Assembly: GCA_003194425.1 (NCBI GenBank)
Contig: PQXB01000001.1
Coordinates: 130,444-162,443, forward strand
Origin: Candidatus Methanophagaceae archaeon
GTDB taxonomy: Archaea; Halobacteriota; Syntropharchaeia; Alkanophagales; Methanospirareceae
Length of the DNA: 32,000 nucleotides
Direction: 5' to 3'
Shown here: piece by piece, positions 10,790 to 21,520 of the stretch
How the letters are laid out: each line of letters begins with the position of its first letter
Numbering within the stretch: the first letter of the stretch is position 1
The notes under the pieces: model-generated
What the model was told of the DNA's origin: nothing
The model's database searches: none
Seen by the model: only the letters and a program-made list of their open reading frames with translations
Made by a program: the position numbers and the translations under genes

Positions 10790-10812
10790 AGTGAAATTGA
10801 GAGGGAGTGAAA
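10781..10812 (+). repeat. Perfect 16-nt tandem duplication (ttgagagggagtgaaa x2) covering the aminotransferase stop and the argD Shine-Dalgarno
   Basis: Copies lie at 10781-10796 and 10797-10812. Each contains GAGGGAGTGA. Confidence 0.95.
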
Positions 10813-10814
10813 AA

Positions 10815-12056
10815 ATGTTTTCGTCGCAGGAGGAACAGGAGGAACAGGAGGAACAGGAGGAGCAGGAGGAACAGGAGGAGGTTTTTGAGAAAGAGCGGAG
10901 ATATTTGATGCCGACCTACAAGCGATCGCGGGTCGTGCTGAAATCCGGAAGAGGGGCGGTGGTGAAGGATTTCTCGGGTCGCGAGTACTTGGACTGCGTC
11001 GCTGGAATTGCGGTGAACGCGGTCGGGCACTGCCACCCCGCGGTAGTGAAAGCGTTGAGAGAGCAGGCGGAACGGCTCATTCACACCTCAAATTTGTTTT
11101 ACACCGAGCCACAAGTAAAACTCGCGGAGAAACTTTCGGGACTAACAGGACTGGAGAAGGCGTTCTTCTGCAATTCCGGTGCAGAGAGCGTGGAGGCGGC
11201 GTTGAAGTTAGCGTGCAAAGAAACAGGGAAAACCGGGTTCGTTGCCGCGGAGGGAAGTTTTCACGGCAGAACGCTCGGCTCGCTGAGTGCTACTTTTGAC
11301 CCGAAGTTCAGAGGCGTGTTTGAACCTTTGCTTTTGCCTCGGGTGGGGAACGGTGTGAAATTCGTGCCGTACGGCGACGCAGAGGCGATTCGAGCTGCGA
11401 CTGACGACAAAACCGCTGCGGTCATTTTGGAGCCTGTTCAGGGCGAGACAGGCGTGATTATTCCCCCCGCGGGCTACTTAAAAGAGGTGCGGGAAATCTG
11501 CGACGAGAAAAGGGTCTTGCTGATTTTTGATGAAATTCAGACCGGGTTCGGTCGTACTGGAAAGTGGTTCTGCAAGGAGCACGAGGGCGTGGAGCCGGAT
11601 ATTTTGACACTCGCGAAGGCGTTGGGAGCAGGGTTTCCAATCGGCGCGATGCTCGCACGAGAGGGCTTGGAATTTGAAGCCGGCGAGCACGGCTCGACCT
11701 TCGGCGGCGGTCCGCTGGCGTGCTCCGCCGCGCTGGCGTCTGTAAAAGTGATTGAGCGGGAGGGGCTGGTGGATCGGTCGAGAGTGCTGGGTGCGTATTT
11801 TTTGGAGCGGTTTGCGGCTGAGTCCACGGCTGCAGGCTCGGACTCCAACCCTGCAGTGAAGGAAGTGCGGGGCAAGGGGCTGATGATTGGGATTGAATTG
11901 GCGAAGCCCTGCGGGGAAGTGGTCGAGCGGGCGTTAGAAAGAGGCGTTCTGGTAAATTGCACTGCAGAGAGAGTGGTAAGGCTGGTGCCGCCGCTGGTCG
12001 TAAGCAAAGAGCAGTTGGACAAGGTGATTTCGGTCCTGCTCGAATTCATCAAGTAA
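10815..12056 (+). CDS. argD: Acetylornithine / class-III aminotransferase
   Basis: The ATG at 10815 lies 5 nt after GGAGTGA; the ORF track starts at the GTG at 10791. Motifs: LMPTYKR, GIAVNAVGHCHP, FFCNSGAESVEAA, LIFDEIQTGFGRTG, TLAKALGAGFPIGA. It has an N-terminal (QEE)x6. Confidence 0.9.
   Translation: MFSSQEEQEEQEEQEEQEEQEEVFEKERRYLMPTYKRSRVVLKSGRGAVVKDFSGREYLDCVAGIAVNAVGHCHPAVVKALREQAERLIHTSNLFYTEPQVKLAEKLSGLTGLEKAFFCNSGAESVEAALKLACKETGKTGFVAAEGSFHGRTLGSLSATFDPKFRGVFEPLLLPRVGNGVKFVPYGDAEAIRAATDDKTAAVILEPVQGETGVIIPPAGYLKEVREICDEKRVLLIFDEIQTGFGRTGKWFCKEHEGVEPDILTLAKALGAGFPIGAMLAREGLEFEAGEHGSTFGGGPLACSAALASVKVIEREGLVDRSRVLGAYFLERFAAESTAAGSDSNPAVKEVRGKGLMIGIELAKPCGEVVERALERGVLVNCTAERVVRLVPPLVVSKEQLDKVISVLLEFIK
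10827..10880 (+). repeat. 9-nt tandem repeat x6 (caggaggaR), encoding (QEE)x6
   Basis: Directly visible, in frame at the argD N-terminus. Confidence 0.95.
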
Positions 12057-12097: not shown

Positions 12098-12808
12098 ATG
12101 GAATACGAGATAATTGGGGATAATCTCCAGATGGTCGTTGTAAAGATCTCTTCTGGAGAGATGGTTTACGGAGAGGCGGGTGCAATGATTTATATGAGCG
12201 AGAATATGGAGATGAACGCGAAGGCGAAGGGCGGGTTTCTGAAAGGGGTGATGCGAAAATTTGCGGGAGAGTCATTTTTTATGACAGAATTCTCGCCGAA
12301 AGGATACGGTTTCGTGGCTTTTGCCGGCAACGCACCAGGGCGGATAAAAGCGATTGAACTCAGGGGCAACGAGTTCATTGCAATGAACGATGCTTTCTTG
12401 TGCGCTCAGGAGGGCGTTGAACTCGAGATCAAGGCTGCCTTATCAGCGAAACAGAGAGGGGGGTTGCTGTTCGGTGGAGGACGACCATTTATTCTGGAAC
12501 GGCTGGGTGGAAGGGGGTCTGCGTTTATCCACGCCTGCGGCGATTTTGTAGAGATTGACCTTGCACATGGCGAAGTTGTGAAGGTGGACACCGGCTCTAT
12601 CGTAGGATTCGAGAGCAGCGTGAGTTACGACATCGTGAGGGCAGGGAACGTAAAGACAATGCTCTTCAGTGGCGAACACTCCTATTTGACTACCTTGACC
12701 GGTCCAGGTCACGTGATTCTGCAGTCAATGACCATGCCGAACTTGGCGGCAGCGCTCAGACCTTTCCTGCCTTCATCTTCAGGAACATCCGAAGGATCCG
12801 TAGAGTAG
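12098..12808 (+). CDS. AIM24 / DUF124 (TIGR00266-type) family protein
   Basis: 236 aa. MEYEIIGDNLQMVVVKI, GEAGAMIYM, GESFFMTEF and ILQSM are typical of this family. Confidence 0.75.
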   Translation: MEYEIIGDNLQMVVVKISSGEMVYGEAGAMIYMSENMEMNAKAKGGFLKGVMRKFAGESFFMTEFSPKGYGFVAFAGNAPGRIKAIELRGNEFIAMNDAFLCAQEGVELEIKAALSAKQRGGLLFGGGRPFILERLGGRGSAFIHACGDFVEIDLAHGEVVKVDTGSIVGFESSVSYDIVRAGNVKTMLFSGEHSYLTTLTGPGHVILQSMTMPNLAAALRPFLPSSSGTSEGSVE

Positions 12809-12918: not shown

Positions 12919-13866
12919 TTATCTTTTTTCTTTTCTTATTTGAGGGTAGAAAAAAACCGCCAACGGAACGAGAAAGAGGACGCCAATCACGATTTTGCCG
13001 ACGACCGAGCCTGAATTGAAGAGAATAAAAAAAACAGGCTCTTCCTCACGCTGCATCTCAAACAGGCAGGGAAAAACATCTCCCAAGAACTCTTTTGTTA
13101 CATTGAGAATCCCGTCGTAAGAGCCTTCGGGTGGTGCGAGTGCCGAGACGCGAATCATTGTAAAGTTGGCACTGTGAAACGGCTCCTCCTTCACATAAAA
13201 ATAGAGGACGACCCGCCGGTCTGTTACATTTCCGCTTTCTCCCCCCCTCTTTACGACGACGAGCTTCTTTACCGAGACTGTGCCGTTGAAGTAGCCTAAC
13301 TCTCCTTTTCTGCTCTCGAAAGTGGAGTACAGAGGTCTCCCTGCCCAACTCACATTCTGCACAAACACCTCCTCTTTCCCCACCTCCTCAATCTCGTAGC
13401 CAAGAGCGGGGTAGCAGACGATAGGGGAGTGGAAGCTTGAACGAGCGTTGGACTGCAGAATGAGGAGATCTATTGAGTAGTATGATTTTGGCTGTGAGTA
13501 AGCACGCATTAGCATCACATCCGCACCCAGAGTTTCTGCAACACCCGTAGTGTTGTAATCTGGTTCTAAGGCGTTCCACTCGTCAATCTGCTTTGGAAAT
13601 GCCAGCATATGCTCGTTGTTCCCGAAATCCTGCAGCGTTTGAACGAACATTGCATCTTCTGTAGCCTGCGAGAGCTCGGTGTCAATTGTCTTGATGCCCT
13701 TGGCTAAAATCATTGAAGGCGTCGAGAAGAGCAGGATAATTACGAGTGCGAACGAAAGCAGTCCAATAATCCTTGAATATTCCACGAAGAAATCTTTCAG
13801 CTCCTCCCTCTCTTCCTCTTTTTCCTTCTTCTTCTCTCCTTCTCTCCCCTCCTTCTCTTTTGCCAC
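12919..13866 (-). CDS. EpsI-like (exosortase/archaeosortase-associated) membrane protein
   Basis: 315 aa with N- and C-terminal TM helices. The central region fits the EpsI pattern: FPKQIDEWNA ... GADVMLMRAYSQ ... IDLLILQSNARSSFHSPIVCYPALGYEIEE ... RRVVLYFYV. It has a K/E-rich N-terminal tail. Confidence 0.6.
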   Translation of the reverse strand: MAKEKEGREGEKKKEKEEEREELKDFFVEYSRIIGLLSFALVIILLFSTPSMILAKGIKTIDTELSQATEDAMFVQTLQDFGNNEHMLAFPKQIDEWNALEPDYNTTGVAETLGADVMLMRAYSQPKSYYSIDLLILQSNARSSFHSPIVCYPALGYEIEEVGKEEVFVQNVSWAGRPLYSTFESRKGELGYFNGTVSVKKLVVVKRGGESGNVTDRRVVLYFYVKEEPFHSANFTMIRVSALAPPEGSYDGILNVTKEFLGDVFPCLFEMQREEEPVFFILFNSGSVVGKIVIGVLFLVPLAVFFYPQIRKEKR

Positions 13867-13970
13867 TTCAAACCTTACCTCCTCTCTCTAAACTTCTTTT
13901 CGTCTAAATGTTTAAACACCTGCTAAACACTTCACTTGCAAATTCGCTGTTCTTAAAACCTTTTTAAAAT

Positions 13971-14013
13971 AAAAAAAATGAGAGGAGCAGAAAATCTGAA
14001 AAAATCTCCTCTC
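13971..14013 (-). terminator. Hairpin plus T8 run downstream of the 14042-14746 gene
   Basis: An 8-bp perfect stem, gagaggag (13980-13987) / ctcctctc (14006-14013), is followed on the minus strand by tttttttt (13971-13978). Confidence 0.45.
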
Positions 14014-14041
14014 TTCTCCTCTTTGGTCCTCTTTTATTGTC

Positions 14042-14746
14042 CTATTTCCTGTCCTCTTTTCTGCGGTTGTACAGCACGAATCCAGCGAGTGCGAGCAGTC
14101 CGGTACCAAACAAGACCACCGTCGGCAGCTCTGGCGTTGGGTAGGGGTCGCCACAGGTTGGAGAAGACACAGTGGTTGCTGAGGAGCCCTCTGTATTTAT
14201 GTACGCCTCCGCACCATCCCCAGCCATCGAGAGCCTAAGAGCGAGATAATCTCCCTGTGGCACTGTAAACAATGGACAACTCACAACAAAATGGCTAGCA
14301 CCATCACTGCAGACATTTACAATTCCTACGATTGATTTTTCGCACTTTTCGTCGAACTCTCCTGTGCTGTGGTCGAGGATTCCAACTTTCGCTGTAACCG
14401 TTTCGGTACTATCGAGATAACCACTACACTCCGCATCAATAGGCTCATAATCGAGATGTACAACCCAGTTTCCCGCGCAGAAGGAAACCTCGCATTGAGC
14501 CGATTCGTTTGCACTCCAGGTAAATGAGTCGGTCTCATTTAACCAGAAATCATTTGAAGTTCCCGTTCTCGCTCCTCTCGTCATCCAATAATTTGCTCCA
14601 GCTGGAACTTCTGTTTCATTTGTAGTTGGGTACCACGTGATGCTCACCGCGCTCGCCGTTCCGACCACCGAAACCAGCACTACCGCTGCTACCAAAAAAC
14701 TTACAACCGCTTTTTTCGTTTCTGTTTTCGTTTCTGTTTTGTTCAT
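14042..14746 (-). CDS. Secreted Cys-rich protein with PEP/PEF-CTERM-like sorting tail
   Basis: 234 aa. N-terminal signal peptide (KKAVVSFLVAAVVLVSVVGTASA). Tripartite C-terminus: PTPELPT, then a hydrophobic helix VVLFGTGLLALAGFVLY, then a basic cluster NRRKEDRK. It has several N-x-S/T sequons and 7 Cys. Confidence 0.65.
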   Translation of the reverse strand: MNKTETKTETKKAVVSFLVAAVVLVSVVGTASAVSITWYPTTNETEVPAGANYWMTRGARTGTSNDFWLNETDSFTWSANESAQCEVSFCAGNWVVHLDYEPIDAECSGYLDSTETVTAKVGILDHSTGEFDEKCEKSIVGIVNVCSDGASHFVVSCPLFTVPQGDYLALRLSMAGDGAEAYINTEGSSATTVSSPTCGDPYPTPELPTVVLFGTGLLALAGFVLYNRRKEDRK

Positions 14747-15555: not shown

Positions 15556-15631
15556 TGGTTTTTAACTCTAAATTAAACTTAAGAAAGAAGAGGGTTTTTA
15601 AGGTGTAACGAAAGAATAAAAGGGAGGAAAG

Positions 15632-15949
15632 ATGGAAGCGAGGGAAGTAATATCTTCGGTTGTAATGGTTTTTTCTACCTTCGTGCTGGCGTACAAATGG
15701 GTGTACAAGTACAAGGCAGGAGACCCAGTGGTCGTGCTCTCGTCGGTGGTTTTGATGGGGATGTTAGCGGTTCTGTTTCTAAGTACAGCAGAGCGGTTAA
15801 AGAGGCTGGAGGAGGAACTAAACGAGAAAGAGCGGTCTTTGCGAGTGAGCATGCAGTCAGTCGAGGAGGAGGTGCGGGAGAAGGTGAGTGCTGCGACGAG
15901 GCGGTTGGACGAGGTTAGGGAGGAGATTGTAAGGAGGGGGTACCGGTAA
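15632..15949 (+). CDS. Small membrane protein (2 TM helices plus coiled-coil tail), function unknown
   Basis: 105 aa. It has two hydrophobic segments followed by the charged heptad-like ERLKRLEEELNEKERSL...EEEVREKV. The antisense 184-aa ORF has shadow-like S/T/L/R composition. Confidence 0.5.
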   Translation: MEAREVISSVVMVFSTFVLAYKWVYKYKAGDPVVVLSSVVLMGMLAVLFLSTAERLKRLEEELNEKERSLRVSMQSVEEEVREKVSAATRRLDEVREEIVRRGYR

Positions 15950-15960
15950 AAAGACATCTG

Positions 15961-16551
15961 ATGTGGAAAGAGGTAGTGGCGAAGTTTGAGGGTCTGCCCT
16001 CGCAGAAGAGGGTCGTTGAACTGCTCTTGGAGCGAGGGTTTCAAGTCAGTGCGGAGGGCAGTGCGGAGGGCAGTGCGAAGGGCAGTGCGAAGGGCAGTGC
16101 GGAAGGAAGGGTGAAGGGAAGAATTGTCTCGGGCGGGATTGAAATTCCGCACACGCAGGTGGCGAACGAGACAGGCGTGGACAGGCGGGTAGTAGACGAG
16201 ACGGTGAGGCGGATTTTGAGGGACGCGGGGCTGCGGGAGATTTTTGAAAATATCAGGTCGGTCGCGTTTCTTGCGGAGGTCGCGCCTTTGCTGGGGCTGT
16301 GTGTGGTTGTAATTTACCCAACGGACGCGAGGGAGAAGGGGATTCTCGGCGAGGTCGCTACGGTGATTGGAAAGCGCGGGGTTAGCATTCGTCAGGCAGT
16401 CAGCGACGACCCCTACCTCGTGGACGACCCGAAACTCACGATCATCGCGGATAAAAATATTCCAGGCGACTTAATTGCGGAAATCGGGCGGATAAAGAGC
16501 GTGAAAAGCGTGCAGATTCTCTCGCCCCGTCTCCCGTCCCGCAGAGCGTAA
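15961..16551 (+). CDS. ACT-domain putative regulator of amino-acid metabolism (COG2150-like)
   Basis: 196 aa. LPSQKRVVELLLERGFQV, IEIPHTQVANETGVDRRVV, GILGEVATVIGKRGVSIRQAVSDDP and KLTIIADKNIPGDLI match the archaeal family from memory. It carries a (SAEG/SAKG)x5 insert. Confidence 0.7.
   Translation: MWKEVVAKFEGLPSQKRVVELLLERGFQVSAEGSAEGSAKGSAKGSAEGRVKGRIVSGGIEIPHTQVANETGVDRRVVDETVRRILRDAGLREIFENIRSVAFLAEVAPLLGLCVVVIYPTDAREKGILGEVATVIGKRGVSIRQAVSDDPYLVDDPKLTIIADKNIPGDLIAEIGRIKSVKSVQILSPRLPSRRA
16048..16107 (+). repeat. 12-nt tandem repeat x5 (agtgcgRagggc), encoding (SA[E/K]G)x5
   Basis: Directly visible and in frame. Confidence 0.95.
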
Positions 16552-20171: not shown

Positions 20172-20205
20172 GTTAGGCGGCTCTCCTCTTTTTTTATTTT
20201 TTAGT
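20112..20205 (+). repeat. Direct repeat copy 1 (94 bp): last 20 codons, stop and terminator of the 18888-20171 gene
   Basis: 92/94 identical to 20727-20820, offset 615 bp. Confidence 0.95.
20157..20202 (+). terminator. Hairpin (gagttgcc/ggcggctc, 2 G-U pairs) followed by T7-A-T6
   Basis: The stem is 20157-20164 / 20176-20183, with T runs at 20189-20202. It overlaps the stop codon of the upstream gene. Confidence 0.45.
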
Positions 20206-20209
20206 TAAA

Positions 20210-20464
20210 ATGAAAAAATATAAGGTCCGAGTAATAATTGACCCCTGTGAAGAGGGGGGATATTTTGCTACGTGCCCAGCCTTGCAGGGCTGCCACGCAG
20301 AAGGAGAGACCTACTTAGAGGCTTTGGAGAACATTCAGGATGTTATCAAAATTCATCTTGAAAGCCGAGCGGAATTGGGAATGTTGCCACCCGATCAAGC
20401 AGAAGTTGTTAGCGTGCTGGACACATTCAAAGTGGAATTAATGGTACCAGTGGCGGAAGCGTGA
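20210..20464 (+). CDS. hicB: HicB-like antitoxin (short UPF0150 form, no DNA-binding domain)
   Basis: 84 aa. YKVRVIIDPCEEGGYFATCPALQGCHAEGETYLEALENIQDVIKIHLE is a textbook HicB N-domain. Confidence 0.8.
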   Translation: MKKYKVRVIIDPCEEGGYFATCPALQGCHAEGETYLEALENIQDVIKIHLESRAELGMLPPDQAEVVSVLDTFKVELMVPVAEA

Positions 20465-20694
20465 GTAAAAAGCTGCCCTCTGTAACCGACAGGGAAGTTA
20501 TCAAGGTTGCCAAAAAGCTTGGTTTCACATTTTACAGGCAGGCAAAGGGCAGTCACGAAGTTTGGCGTAGGGCGAGTGACGGGCGGCATACTGTGATACC
20601 AAGACACGCAGGTAAAATTATCAAACGGAAGACGCTGAAAAGTATCATAAATGATTTTGGAATAACCGTTGAGGTCTTTAACGGGCTGAGATAA
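20461..20694 (+). CDS. hicA: HicA-family mRNA interferase toxin
   Basis: 77 aa. The GTG start overlaps the hicB stop by 4 nt (GTGA). Motifs: VIKVAKKLGFTFYRQAKGSHEVW, VIPRHAGKIIKRKTLKSIINDFGI. Confidence 0.85.
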   Translation: MSKKLPSVTDREVIKVAKKLGFTFYRQAKGSHEVWRRASDGRHTVIPRHAGKIIKRKTLKSIINDFGITVEVFNGLR

Positions 20695-20726
20695 ATATAT
20701 CCAACAAAGAGATTGCATCCCTCTCC

Positions 20727-20820
20727 GAGGTAGGAGAGGAGTTGCAGAGAAGGGTAGAGGAAGAGGGAGTGGAGTTGCCGTTTTAGGTTAGGCGGCTCTC
20801 CTCTTTTTTTATTTTTTAGT
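20727..20820 (+). repeat. Direct repeat copy 2 (94 bp), an orphan copy of the gene 3' end and terminator
   Basis: It has two mismatches to copy 1 (K to Q in the relic reading frame). No upstream ORF is attached: an in-frame stop lies shortly upstream and there is no ATG. Confidence 0.95.
20772..20817 (+). terminator. Duplicated copy of the hairpin plus T-run terminator
   Basis: Same sequence as 20157-20202. It would terminate hicBA transcripts. Confidence 0.35.
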
Positions 20821-20858
20821 CAAGGTTTTTAGCACAGGTAAAAAAGTTGTTGTCTATA

Positions 20859-21152
20859 ATGAATCTTCGGTTTTACAGAGACCCAGCGACAAATCTTCCA
20901 CACATCTACAAACACGGGGTAACAGAGCGGGAAGTAGAAGAAATTTTAGCACAGCCCGGCGAAGACCGTCTTGGAAATGAGGGCTCGCGAGTTGCTGTTG
21001 GTCAGACTCGAGAAGGCAGGTTTCTTCGTGTCGTTTATGTGCCTGACAAAGAGCCTAATAGTTTATTTGTGATAACGGCGTATAATTTAATGGGAAAAGC
21101 ATTGTTAGCGTACCGAAAGCGAAAGCGAAGGAGGAGAAGGAGAAGAAAATGA
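20859..21152 (+). CDS. BrnT/DUF497-like putative toxin
   Basis: The ATG is at 20859; the ORF track starts at the TTG at 20847. IYKHGVTEREVEEIL, GQTREGRFLRVVYV and LFVITAYNL resemble BrnT-type toxins. It has a poly-Arg tail and overlaps the downstream gene by 4 nt. Confidence 0.55.
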   Translation: MNLRFYRDPATNLPHIYKHGVTEREVEEILAQPGEDRLGNEGSRVAVGQTREGRFLRVVYVPDKEPNSLFVITAYNLMGKALLAYRKRKRRRRRRRK

Positions 21153-21382
21153 AGCAGCAGGATAAGTTTCCACCTGGCTGGAAAGAAGAGCGAGTGCGGC
21201 GTGTTTTAACGCACTACGAGAACCAAACAGACGAGGAAGCGGTAGCTGAAGACGAAGCCGCTTTTGAGCTTGAACCTGAAATTGAACCAGAACCCGAAGG
21301 GCAGAGAGGCCAGACGATTATGGAGATCCCGCAAGAACTGGTTCCTAAGGTTCGTGCTCTAATTGCTGAATGTCAGTGCTGA
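21149..21382 (+). CDS. Putative cognate antitoxin (small acidic protein)
   Basis: 77 aa with an ATGA overlap with the upstream toxin-like gene. WKEERVRRVLTHYENQTDEEAVAEDEAAFE ... IMEIPQELVPKVRALI is a pattern I recall next to DUF497-type toxins. The family name is uncertain. Confidence 0.5.
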   Translation: MKQQDKFPPGWKEERVRRVLTHYENQTDEEAVAEDEAAFELEPEIEPEPEGQRGQTIMEIPQELVPKVRALIAECQC

Positions 21383-21475
21383 ATCGTCCCTTTTCAATCC
21401 CGACGACCCTTTCTTCACTACAACTAAAATGCTCATAGGAATATATCTGAAGAAGTAGGAGAGAGGGATGGAGTT

Positions 21476-21520
21476 ACCACACACCCACTCACCACACCAC
21501 TCACCACACACCCACTCACC
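21476..21520. repeat. Imperfect CA-rich tandem repeat (ccacacacccactca-like units x3)
   Basis: It lies immediately 3' of the trpC stop, between convergent genes. Confidence 0.8.

What the first reader, a model, noticed from the sequence alone, without database searches (positions are those of the whole stretch)
12919..14746. EpsI-like protein adjacent to a PEP/PEF-CTERM-like cargo, with no archaeosortase in the window
The 315-aa minus-strand ORF has the hallmark EpsI layout: FPxxIxxW, then L-x-R-x-Y, then a short hydrophobic block and FHSPxxCxPxxGY.

Its upstream neighbour on the same strand encodes a signal-peptide protein. That protein ends in PTPELPT, a hydrophobic helix and NRRKEDRK. This is the tripartite architecture recognised by exosortases and archaeosortases, but with a PEL-type motif rather than the named PGF, PEF or VPXXXP variants.

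In bacteria EpsI is an established exosortase partner, either adjacent to or fused with EpsH/XrtA. Archaeal EpsI-like proteins next to their cargo are poorly described as far as I know. The transpeptidase itself is not encoded within 32 kb.

Both genes are visibly more A/T-rich than the surrounding core genes. They are separated by a hairpin plus T8 terminator, so they are probably separate transcripts. This may be a variant sorting system or a cargo-recognition module.
Basis: partly seen in the sequence, partly recalled or inferred. Interest (0 to 1): 0.65.

Follow-up and report, generated by a model that had tools for sequence, protein, structure and literature searches.

The report
Sortase-less exosortase cargo–EpsI pair, ANME-1
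An ANME-1 methane-oxidising archaeon carries two parts of a bacterial-type surface-protein sorting system: a hypervariable surface protein with a conserved "PEL" C-terminal sorting tail, and the helper protein EpsI. The cutting enzyme that normally sits between these two genes is missing, so this is a stripped-down copy of a system not yet described in archaea.

Summary
ORF 12919-13866(-) is an EpsI-family protein (Pfam PF11984 32.1 bits, cutoff 26.1) with a TM helix at each end. ORF 14042-14746(-) is a Sec-exported jelly-roll protein ending in PTPELPT, a TM helix and a basic cluster.

The tail is a true sorting-signal class. 140 of 150 family representatives (all under 50% identical to each other) end in P-[VI]-P-E-L-[PS]-T..L..GLLAL.GYV..RRR. 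Dozens of unrelated proteins next to sortase genes carry it too.

The partner enzyme in relatives is a bacterial-type exosortase (passes TIGR02602; fails ArtC/ArtE), not an archaeosortase. The usual gene order is cargo, exosortase, EpsI, often followed by a CPBP protease. 39 of 53 assessable loci have the exosortase abutting EpsI. These loci come from ANME-1, GoM-Arc1 and Dehalococcoidia.

The window's lineage (Methanophagales) has lost the exosortase from between the two genes. No sortase lies within 32 kb. I could not establish whether one exists elsewhere in the genome.

EpsI is still constrained (51 of 55 invariant residues kept). The cargo's mature domain is a hypervariable cassette (35-70% nt identity) between 98-100% identical flanks.

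Verdict: new variant of a known kind. NCBI names these proteins automatically, but I found no paper describing the system. Interest is moderate.

The parts
14042..14746 (-). Cargo gene (234 aa): signal peptide, jelly-roll beta-sandwich and PEL-type C-terminal sorting tail
   Evidence: ORF. Family of 405 representatives with E<=1e-3. Homolog of the first gene of the cargo-exosortase-EpsI clusters (E 6e-18 to the L004 cargo; jackhmmer). No Pfam domain. AF2 model pLDDT 86.7. Foldseek matches jelly-roll domains: CocE/NonD C-terminal domain (E 4e-7), TNF-like proteins, phage tail-fibre and knob domains.
14648..14746 (-). Cargo signal peptide (aa 1-33, ...VVGTASA|VS)
   Evidence: Hydrophobic segment aa 13-31. 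Conserved between window, L001 and L065 while the mature domain diverges.
14160..14640 (-). Hypervariable cassette: the mature jelly-roll domain of the cargo
   Evidence: 35-70% nt identity with indels among three lineage-mates whose flanks are 98-100% identical. dS 0.345 and dN 0.286, against dS 0.02-0.04 in neighbouring genes.
14045..14140 (-). PEL-CTERM-like sorting tail (aa 203-234: PTPELPT, TM helix, NRRKEDRK)
   Evidence: Fits the family logo P-[VI]-P-E-L-[PS]-T..L..GLLAL.G[YF]V..RRR, seen in 140 of 150 representatives (124 with PEL exactly). About 40 ORFs flanking exosortase-EpsI loci carry it. TIGR02595 PEP-CTERM scores 14.1, below the cutoff of 16.
13867..14041 (-). 175-bp A/T-rich spacer where relatives carry the exosortase gene; T8 run at 13971-13978; possible TATA-like elements for EpsI
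   Evidence: GC 0.337. No exosortase remnant by tblastn. Hairpin not significant. In L008, L009, L034 and L014 the exosortase gene lies between cargo and EpsI.
12919..13866 (-). EpsI-like gene (315 aa): cytoplasmic K/E-rich N-terminus, TM1, extracytoplasmic beta-rich domain, TM2
   Evidence: PF11984 32.1 bits, above GA 26.1. 331 homologs, named by NCBI 'exosortase-associated EpsI family protein'. AF2 pLDDT 78. Keeps 51 of 55 family-invariant residues.
13396..13434 (-). Hallmark motif FHSPIVCYPALGY (aa 145-157), with invariant His146 and Cys151
   Evidence: Invariant columns in alignment A1. The family consensus FHPP is FHSP here.
13705..13761 (-). EpsI TM helix 1 (aa 36-54)
   Evidence: Kyte-Doolittle 2.37. 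Lies inside AF2 helix 2-47.
12949..13005 (-). EpsI TM helix 2 (aa 288-306), followed by the basic C-terminus QIRKEKR
   Evidence: Kyte-Doolittle 2.61. AF2 helix 288-305. Conserved across the family.

Best explanation
The two genes are a satellite 'cargo + EpsI' module of a bacterial-type exosortase sorting system. This system is widespread in ANME-1 (Methanophagales), GoM-Arc1 and related archaea, and in Dehalococcoidia bacteria.

The full system is an operon. It starts with one or more cargo genes ending in a P-[VI]-P-E-L-[PS]-T / TM helix / Arg-Lys tail. Next come an 8-TM exosortase with Cys-Arg-His signature residues and a two-TM EpsI-like protein. A CPBP intramembrane protease gene often follows.

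In the window's Methanophagales lineage the exosortase gene is gone from between cargo and EpsI, and no CPBP gene follows.

Proposed mechanism (inferred by analogy with exosortase and archaeosortase systems; not shown here):
1. The cargo is exported by Sec and its signal peptide is removed.
2. It is held in the membrane by the C-terminal helix and the basic cluster.
3. An exosortase encoded elsewhere in the genome cleaves at the PEL motif and transfers the jelly-roll domain to a surface acceptor.
4. EpsI is tethered by a TM helix at each end, with its conserved His/Cys domain outside the cell. It acts as the exosortase's extracytoplasmic partner at the tail or acceptor step.

The displayed jelly-roll domain is swapped between strains as a hypervariable cassette. 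The export and sorting signals stay fixed.
For: Shown:
- EpsI family membership.
- An exosortase abuts EpsI upstream, on the same strand, in 39 of 53 non-redundant loci with enough flank.
- These sortases pass TIGR02602 and keep the GLPCSGMN, ANILR and FFH motifs.
- The cargo domain family sits directly upstream of the exosortase in L008, L009, L034, L014 and L030, and between exosortase and EpsI in L052.
- The tail logo is conserved across representatives under 50% identical to each other and across unrelated proteins such as a Peptidase_C1 protein.
- A tail variant (PVPDVS) tracks one EpsI clade, L044-L046.
- Orphan EpsI copies are scattered across the tree, and the window nests among exosortase-adjacent copies.
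- In 5 of 7 archaeal MAGs with an orphan copy, an exosortase is seen in another or the same fetched locus. L024 has the same cargo-to-EpsI layout, and its MAG has an exosortase-EpsI pair in L031.
- The window's tail is almost unchanged among three strains while the mature domain has turned over.
- EpsI keeps 51 of 55 invariant residues.

Inferred: the processing chemistry, the acceptor, the role of EpsI, and the existence of a trans-encoded exosortase.
Against: - No exosortase in the 32-kb window or within 10 kb of EpsI in two sister genomes.
- None of the 120 best exosortase clusters lies on a contig over 100.5 kb, although the window's genome has a 1.19-Mb contig and a sister MAG a 363-kb contig. 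A close cognate exosortase may therefore be truly absent from this lineage.
- EpsI dN/dS between window and L001 is 0.60, based on few substitutions.
- The window's EpsI has slightly more changes at invariant sites than any sortase-adjacent member, including FHPP to FHSP.
- The sister MAG's copy is frameshifted before TM2.
- No processing of any protein in this system has been shown experimentally.
Confidence: 0.6

Rival explanations
1. Decaying remnant. This lineage lost the exosortase (and CPBP) altogether. The cargo's tail now serves only as a plain C-terminal membrane anchor, and EpsI is a relic drifting towards loss.
For: No sortase locally in three genomes. No top-ranked exosortase on the large contigs of this lineage. 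EpsI dN/dS 0.60. Extra substitutions at invariant sites. Frameshifted copy in GCA_026133975.1. Orphans mostly lack both exosortase and CPBP.
Against: EpsI keeps 51 of 55 invariant residues against 45% identity at variable columns. Twelve sequence variants of the intact gene exist across samples. The PEL motif and the Gly/Leu pattern of the tail stay conserved while the adjacent mature domain diverges to 35-70% nt identity. A plain anchor would not need this. The frameshift lies in a T-run and may be an assembly error.
Confidence: 0.22
2. EpsI works on its own. The two-TM EpsI-like protein, with its invariant His146 and Cys151, itself processes or retains PEL-tail proteins and needs no exosortase. 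The cargo-EpsI pair would then be a minimal self-sufficient module.
For: Cargo-to-EpsI pairs without an adjacent sortase recur independently (window lineage and L024). EpsI has an invariant single Cys and a His in its hallmark motif. Its fold matches nothing in the PDB, so an undescribed activity is not excluded.
Against: Most family members are encoded directly next to an exosortase (39 of 53). MAGs with orphan copies usually also show an exosortase. No protease or transpeptidase fold or family signal was detected in EpsI.
Confidence: 0.1
3. An archaeosortase of a named type (ArtA-ArtE) encoded elsewhere processes the PEL tail.
For: Archaeosortases are the known archaeal enzymes for tripartite tails (PMC6098224). 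PEL resembles the PEF motif of ArtC substrates.
Against: The tails never hit the PGF-, PEF- or VPXXXP-CTERM models. The enzyme genetically linked to this EpsI and cargo family scores as an exosortase and fails ArtC and ArtE. Timmers et al. report that ANME-1 lack ArtA and ArtC (PMC5244752).
Confidence: 0.05

Closest known systems
PEP-CTERM / exosortase (EpsH, XrtA) / EpsI system of Gram-negative bacteria (Haft 2006, PMC1569441; TIGR02595, TIGR02602, TIGR02914)
   Same: Tripartite C-terminal tail (motif, TM helix, basic cluster). In relatives, an 8-TM exosortase that passes TIGR02602 and has Cys/Arg/His signature residues. An EpsI gene directly downstream of the exosortase, with the H-x-P-x-x-C-x-P-x-x-G-Y motif. 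Multiple cargos per genome.
   Different: Hosts are archaea (ANME-1, GoM-Arc1) and Dehalococcoidia. The founding paper reported no PEP-CTERM in Archaea and linked the system to organisms with an outer membrane. The motif is P-E-L, not P-E-P, and most tails fall below the TIGR02595 cutoff. EpsI is about 290 aa with a second, C-terminal TM helix, against about 200-220 aa in bacteria, and falls below the TIGR02914 cutoff. Loci are not in EPS gene clusters. A CPBP protease often follows. In the window the exosortase is missing.
Archaeosortase systems (ArtA/PGF-CTERM of Haloferax; ArtC/PEF-CTERM; ArtB/VPXXXP-CTERM) (Haft 2012; PMC6098224)
   Same: Archaeal host. Same logic: a Sec substrate with a tripartite tail is processed by a polytopic Cys enzyme of the exosortase/archaeosortase superfamily (TIGR04178 signature met in relatives' sortases).
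   Different: The linked enzyme belongs to the bacterial exosortase branch (ArtC 41-48 bits vs cutoff 100; ArtE 28.7 vs 95). The tail does not match the PGF, PEF or VPXXXP models. I did not find EpsI partners mentioned for Art systems in the papers read.
CPBP-family sorting proteases (myxosortase MrtX, MrtS, MrtJ, archaeomyxosortase MrtA; Haft 2023, bioRxiv 10.1101/2023.06.07.544157)
   Same: In 22 related loci a CPBP intramembrane protease gene abuts EpsI. Its best NCBIfam matches are MrtS, MrtJ and the myxosortase core.
   Different: All scores are far below cutoffs (31-46 bits vs 75-130). Those systems use Cys-containing signals and have no exosortase. The window has no CPBP gene.

Membership tests
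EpsI family (Pfam PF11984 / NCBIfam TIGR02914) | Profile HMM score above the curated threshold | tested here: inconclusive
   PF11984 32.1 bits, above GA 26.1. TIGR02914 20.7 bits, below cutoff 42.8. EpsI type V 28.6 vs 228 and type B 22 vs 220. Only aa ~88-193 align. Member of the Pfam family, outside every NCBIfam subtype.
EpsI family (Pfam PF11984 / NCBIfam TIGR02914) | Hallmark motif F-H-x-P-x-x-C-x-P-x-x-G-Y, preceded by FP..I..W and L-x-R-x-Y | tested here: met
   AFPKQIDEW, LMRAY and FHSPIVCYPALGY are present. His146, Cys151, Tyr152, Pro153, Gly156 are invariant in the 25-sequence alignment.
EpsI family (Pfam PF11984 / NCBIfam TIGR02914) | Encoded next to, or fused with, an exosortase | tested here: not met
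   For the window: no exosortase in 32 kb. For the protein's family: met in 39 of 53 assessable loci.
PEP-CTERM sorting domain (TIGR02595 / PF07589) | Tripartite C-terminus: short motif, hydrophobic helix, basic cluster at the very end of a signal-peptide protein | tested here: met
   PTPELPT, aa 207-225 helix, NRRKEDRK. Signal peptide aa 1-33. AF2 helix 208-233.
PEP-CTERM sorting domain (TIGR02595 / PF07589) | P-E-P motif and HMM score above cutoff | tested here: not met
   The motif is P-E-L (124 of 140 family tails). Window tail TIGR02595 14.1, below 16. Other family tails score 12.3-18.0 and one passes. PF07589 is reached by 2 of 50 members.
PEP-CTERM sorting domain (TIGR02595 / PF07589) | Co-occurrence with an exosortase in the same genome | not testable with these tools
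In relatives, PEL-tail genes cluster with exosortase genes.
Archaeal sorting signals PGF-CTERM / PEF-CTERM / VPXXXP-CTERM | Match to the curated signal model | tested here: not met
   None of these models appears at E<=10 for the window tail or for 9 other family tails.
Exosortase (TIGR02602 8TM_EpsH), for the enzyme linked to this family in relatives | HMM above cutoff and Cys/Arg/His signature residues | tested here: met
   L004 125.8, L006 139.3 and L052 143.1 bits, cutoff 105.55. GLPCSGMN, ANILR and FFH are invariant in A2. No such gene is present in the window.
Archaeosortase subfamilies ArtA-ArtE, for the enzyme linked to this family in relatives | HMM above the subfamily cutoff | tested here: not met
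   ArtC 40.9-47.8 vs 100. ArtE 28.7 vs 95. Only the general exo/archaeosortase signature TIGR04178 passes (56-64.5 vs 23).

The most novel reading that the evidence does not exclude
In this ANME-1 lineage the cargo-EpsI pair works with no exosortase at all. The double-anchored EpsI-like protein, with its invariant His/Cys motif, would itself process, retain or present PEL-tail proteins. This would give EpsI its first function. It would also define a minimal two-gene module that displays a strain-variable jelly-roll protein, possibly for partner recognition or virus evasion.
Probability: 0.12. Interest if true: 0.8.

Novelty: new variant of a known kind. Interest (0 to 1): 0.55.

Why it matters
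EpsI has had no known function since 2006. PEP-CTERM/exosortase sorting was described as a trait of bacteria with an outer membrane, and archaea were thought to use only archaeosortases. This analysis defines a bacterial-type exosortase/EpsI system with its own PEL signal. It occurs in uncultured methane- and alkane-oxidising archaea and in Dehalococcoidia. It carries a large, fast-evolving family of small jelly-roll surface proteins.

ANME-1 cell-surface biology is poorly known, and one review infers from domain searches that ANME-1 make no S-layer (PMC5244752). Surface proteins matter for syntrophic partner contact and virus attachment.

The naturally sortase-less cargo-EpsI pair, with a hypervariable displayed domain between fixed export and sorting signals, makes a clean test case. 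It can show what EpsI does and whether it can act apart from its exosortase.

Tried and rejected
1. Exact look-up of the window's EpsI in the contig index found nothing. The identical cluster member P0241 shows the genome is held in NCBI, but it could not be reached.

2. The species-representative genome scan did not contain the window's species (best 64% identity). That used the only genome-contig scan, so no whole-genome sortase search was possible.

3. I tried to link an exosortase to the window's lineage through cluster membership and source patterns. No link was found. The absence of large-contig hits is only a heuristic.

4. A tail-only homolog search for other proteins with the lineage-specific tail failed because the word index returned no candidates.

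5. Foldseek and PDB sequence searches for EpsI gave no significant match. The weak PsbO, MTC28 and Tsi3-like hits (probability 0.5 or less) were not used.

6. No exosortase remnant is in the 175-bp gap. A weak phmmer hit at window 20553-20819 (E 0.005, 12.7 bits) was rejected. It corresponds to L001 3078-3344, which overlaps the HicA gene on the opposite strand.

7. Viral origin was rejected. No EpsI relatives occur on IMG/VR contigs. The cargo alignment was too diverse for that tool.

8. A DGR-type mechanism for cargo variability was considered and rejected. The alleles differ by indels and at all base types.

9. Haft et al. 2012 (PMC3256604) could not be read. Statements about ArtA-E rest on reviews that cite it.
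Full report
**1. What is in the sequence**

Both ORFs are on the minus strand at the stated coordinates.

The 315-aa ORF (12919-13866) starts at a GTG that follows GGAGGT. It has a K/E-rich N-terminus and hydrophobic helices at aa 36-54 and 288-306.

- It passes Pfam PF11984 (DUF3485/EpsI): 32.1 bits against a gathering score of 26.1.
- It fails NCBIfam TIGR02914 (20.7 vs 42.8) and the EpsI type V and type B models.

The 234-aa ORF (14042-14746) has a Sec signal peptide and ends in PTPELPT, a helix and NRRKEDRK. As a whole protein it hits no curated sorting-signal model.

The two genes are somewhat A/T-rich: GC 0.48 and 0.49 against a window mean of 0.532 (sd 0.032). The 175-bp spacer has GC 0.34 and a T8 run. 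The hairpin in front of the T8 run is no better than shuffled sequence (z -1.44).

No exosortase or archaeosortase is encoded anywhere in the window.

**2. The EpsI-like family and its usual partner**

The protein has 331 homologs at E<=1e-3.

- One cluster is 96% identical. The rest are 53-66% identical.
- They come from Methanophagales/ANME-1, Syntropharchaeia, Ca. Argoarchaeum and 'Methanosarcinales' MAGs.
- NCBI already names several of them 'exosortase-associated EpsI family protein'.

The family is about 290 aa and keeps both TM helices and about 50 invariant residues.

I fetched 58 loci from species-representative genomes. Of 53 non-redundant loci with at least 900 nt upstream, 39 have a co-directional ~275-aa polytopic gene abutting or overlapping the EpsI start.

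That gene is a bacterial-type exosortase:

| Model | Score (bits) | Cutoff |
|---|---|---|
| TIGR02602 8TM_EpsH | 126-143 | 105.55 |
| XrtA | 143-172 | 208 |
| ArtC | 41-48 | 100 |
| ArtE | 28.7 | 95 |

. It keeps the GLPCSGMN, ANILR and FFH motifs. These correspond to the Cys/Arg/His triad proposed for this enzyme family (bioRxiv 10.1101/2023.06.07.544157).

Homologs at 34-42% identity, with the same neighbours, occur in Dehalococcoidia/Chloroflexota MAGs. The flanks of L052 look bacterial (PepA, FadD-like, GcvT, FdhD).

**3. The tail is a real sorting signal**

In L004 the gene order is: a 235-aa homolog of the window's cargo (29% identity, E 6e-18), a Peptidase_C1 protein, the exosortase, then EpsI. 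Both upstream proteins end in VPEL[SP]T..LFSTGL.ALAGYV followed by basic residues.

- Across the fetched loci, about 40 ORFs of many lengths carry this tail.
- An exhaustive search with the window's cargo found 405 representatives at the 50% clustering level.
- Of the best 150, 140 end in P-[VI]-P-E-L-[PS]-T-x-x-L-x-[SG]-x-G-L-L-A-L-x-G-Y-V-x-x-R-R-R, and 124 have PEL exactly.
- The window's tail fits every near-invariant position except Tyr to Phe.

One caveat: these hits were retrieved with the full-length cargo, tail included. Most alignments still span the whole protein.

Tail-only scans give bacterial PEP-CTERM (TIGR02595) as the recurring best model, at 12-18 bits against a cutoff of 16 (window 14.1). 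They never give PGF-, PEF- or VPXXXP-CTERM.

One EpsI clade (L044-L046) uses PVPDVS instead, so the tail variant tracks the enzyme clade.

**4. The window's layout is a derived, sortase-less state**

The cargo domain family lies directly upstream of the exosortase in L008, L009, L034, L014 and L030. In L052 it lies between exosortase and EpsI. The ancestral order is therefore cargo, exosortase, EpsI.

- The window, its 96%-identical relatives L001/L002 (ENA) and L065 all have cargo followed by a ~175-bp gap and then EpsI. L065 is GCA_026133975.1, named 'Methanophagales archaeon'.
- The gap holds no exosortase remnant.
- Fourteen loci have such 'orphan' EpsI genes. They are scattered across a neighbour-joining tree, and the window nests next to exosortase-adjacent copies (L008, L007, L061).
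- L024 has the same cargo-to-EpsI layout, and its MAG carries an exosortase-EpsI pair elsewhere (L031).
- In 5 of 7 archaeal MAGs with an orphan, an exosortase is visible in the fetched loci.

**5. A further component: a CPBP protease**

A CPBP/Rce1-type intramembrane protease gene abuts the 3' end of EpsI in 22 loci.

| | CPBP present | CPBP absent |
|---|---|---|
| Exosortase adjacent | 19 | 15 |
| Exosortase not adjacent | 1 | 10 |

. Its best NCBIfam matches are the sorting proteases MrtS, MrtJ and the myxosortase core, all below cutoff. The window has none.

**6. Is the orphan still functional?**

For function:
- The window's EpsI keeps 51 of 55 residues that are invariant in 23 other members. 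Identity at variable columns is only 45%.
- Twelve intact or near-intact sequence variants exist across samples.

For relaxation:
- It has four changes at invariant sites, the same as or more than any sortase-adjacent member (0-4). They include FHPP to FHSP.
- dN/dS against L001 is 0.60, on few substitutions.
- The GCA_026133975.1 copy is frameshifted in a T-run before TM2. This may be an assembly error.

The strongest functional signal is in the cargo. Window, L001 and L065 are 98-100% identical in flanking genes, signal peptide and tail. The mature domain (~14160-14640) is only 35-70% identical at the nucleotide level, with indels. Both dS (0.345) and dN (0.286) are about ten times the flank values. 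That indicates allele replacement by recombination rather than local mutation. Keeping the PEL tail unchanged through this turnover argues that the tail is still being read by something.

**7. Folds**

The cargo models confidently as a jelly-roll beta-sandwich (pLDDT 86.7). It resembles three kinds of non-catalytic binding or display domain:
- the C-terminal domain of CocE/NonD hydrolases (E 4e-7);
- TNF-like proteins;
- phage tail-fibre and knob domains.

EpsI models as a beta-rich domain between two TM helices (pLDDT 78). It has no significant PDB match by fold or by sequence.

**8. What could not be settled**

I could not determine whether the window's genome has an exosortase elsewhere.

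- The window's protein is identical to a cluster member on a 1.19-Mb NCBI contig.
- None of the 120 best exosortase clusters (down to ~53% identity) lies on a contig longer than 100.5 kb. This hints that a close cognate enzyme may be absent from the large contigs of this lineage.
- This is a heuristic only. 1,739 exosortase homologs exist and only 120 were listed.

**9. Literature**

- The founding paper found no PEP-CTERM in Archaea, Firmicutes or Actinomycetes, and stated that EpsI has no known function (PMC1569441).
- A 2018 review lists only ArtA-ArtE for archaea (PMC6098224).
- Timmers et al. 2017 tabulate EpsH-type domains in ANME metagenomes and say that ANME-1 lack ArtA and ArtC. They describe no signal, EpsI or operon (PMC5244752).
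- No paper in the library pairs exosortase with Methanophagales or Dehalococcoidia.
- Haft et al. 2012 was not readable.

**10. Verdict**

This is a new variant of a known kind: a bacterial-type exosortase/EpsI system with a PEL-type signal in archaea. Here it appears in a reduced cargo + EpsI form with a hypervariable displayed domain.

My best estimates:
- 0.6 that a trans-encoded exosortase processes the cargo;
- about 0.2 that the module is a decaying remnant;
- about 0.1 that EpsI acts on its own.

Noticed in passing
window 14160-14640 (cargo mature domain); L001 9230-9700; L065 9210-9700: Hypervariable cassette. Three near-identical genomes (flanks 98-100% nt identity) carry three very different alleles of the jelly-roll domain (35-70% nt identity, with indels). 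The signal peptide and sorting tail are conserved. dS and dN are both about 10 times the flank values, which indicates recombinational allele replacement.
   Followed up: partly
L004 11306-12100(-), L016 2239-3204(-), L030 911-1702(-) and 11015-11869(-), L044 10824-11621(+), L052 7460-8269(+), and others: A CPBP/Rce1-type intramembrane protease gene abuts the EpsI gene (or, in L052, the exosortase) in about half of related loci. Its best matches, all below cutoff, are the sorting proteases MrtS, MrtJ and the myxosortase core. It may be a fourth component of the system. The window has none.
   Followed up: partly
L047, L052, L054, L055, L056, L060: The same exosortase-EpsI(-cargo) module, with PEL-type tails, occurs in Dehalococcoidia/Chloroflexota MAGs (34-42% EpsI identity). 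These sequences sit near the base of the midpoint-rooted tree. This suggests cross-domain transfer. L052's flanks look bacterial.
   Followed up: partly
L044 6803-7807, L045 7021-8886, L046 7946-8866: One EpsI/exosortase clade has cargo tails with PVPDVS in place of PVPELxT, so the signal variant co-varies with the enzyme clade.
   Followed up: no
window 12098-12808 (+): A 236-aa ORF (MEYEIIGDNLQ...; it looks like the AIM24/TIGR00266 type, judged from memory and not scanned) lies between EpsI and the argD-like gene. It is absent from the sister genomes L001 and L065, where EpsI and the aminotransferase gene are about 40-120 bp apart. This is an indel difference right next to the module.
   Followed up: no
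window 20172-21515: A low-GC (0.46) stretch without long ORFs. The matching position holds a HicA/HicB pair in L001 and a DUF4258 gene plus small ORFs in L065. It appears to be a variable toxin-antitoxin islet.
   Followed up: no
window 10791-10900 (+); L001 12150-12240 (-): The N-terminal extension of the argD-like ORF has an (EEQ)n repeat that is longer in the window (SSQEEQEEQEEQEEQEEQEEV) than in L001 (SSQEEQEEQEEV). This is a trinucleotide-unit length polymorphism. It may lie upstream of the true start codon.
   Followed up: no
L065 10001-10876 (GCA_026133975.1, JAOQIL010000001.1): The EpsI copy in this sister MAG is frameshifted after about aa 280, inside a T-run, and loses the C-terminal TM helix. 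It is either an assembly error or early pseudogenisation.
   Followed up: no
L020 1647-4460, L022 4129-6978, L025 3-1544, L028 6535-8367, L032 4734-5744, L014 7824-8036: Many large PEL-tail proteins have a Cys three residues before the motif (C-A-P-[VI]-P-E-L), and the window's cargo has ...PTCGDPYPTPEL. CPBP sorting proteases act on Cys-containing signals, so this may relate to the CPBP neighbour.
   Followed up: no
window 15961-16551 (+): The 196-aa ORF contains a short tandem repeat (GSAEGSAKGSAKGSAEG). The opposite strand reads as ALRT repeats in a spurious 184-aa ORF (15598-16152).
   Followed up: no
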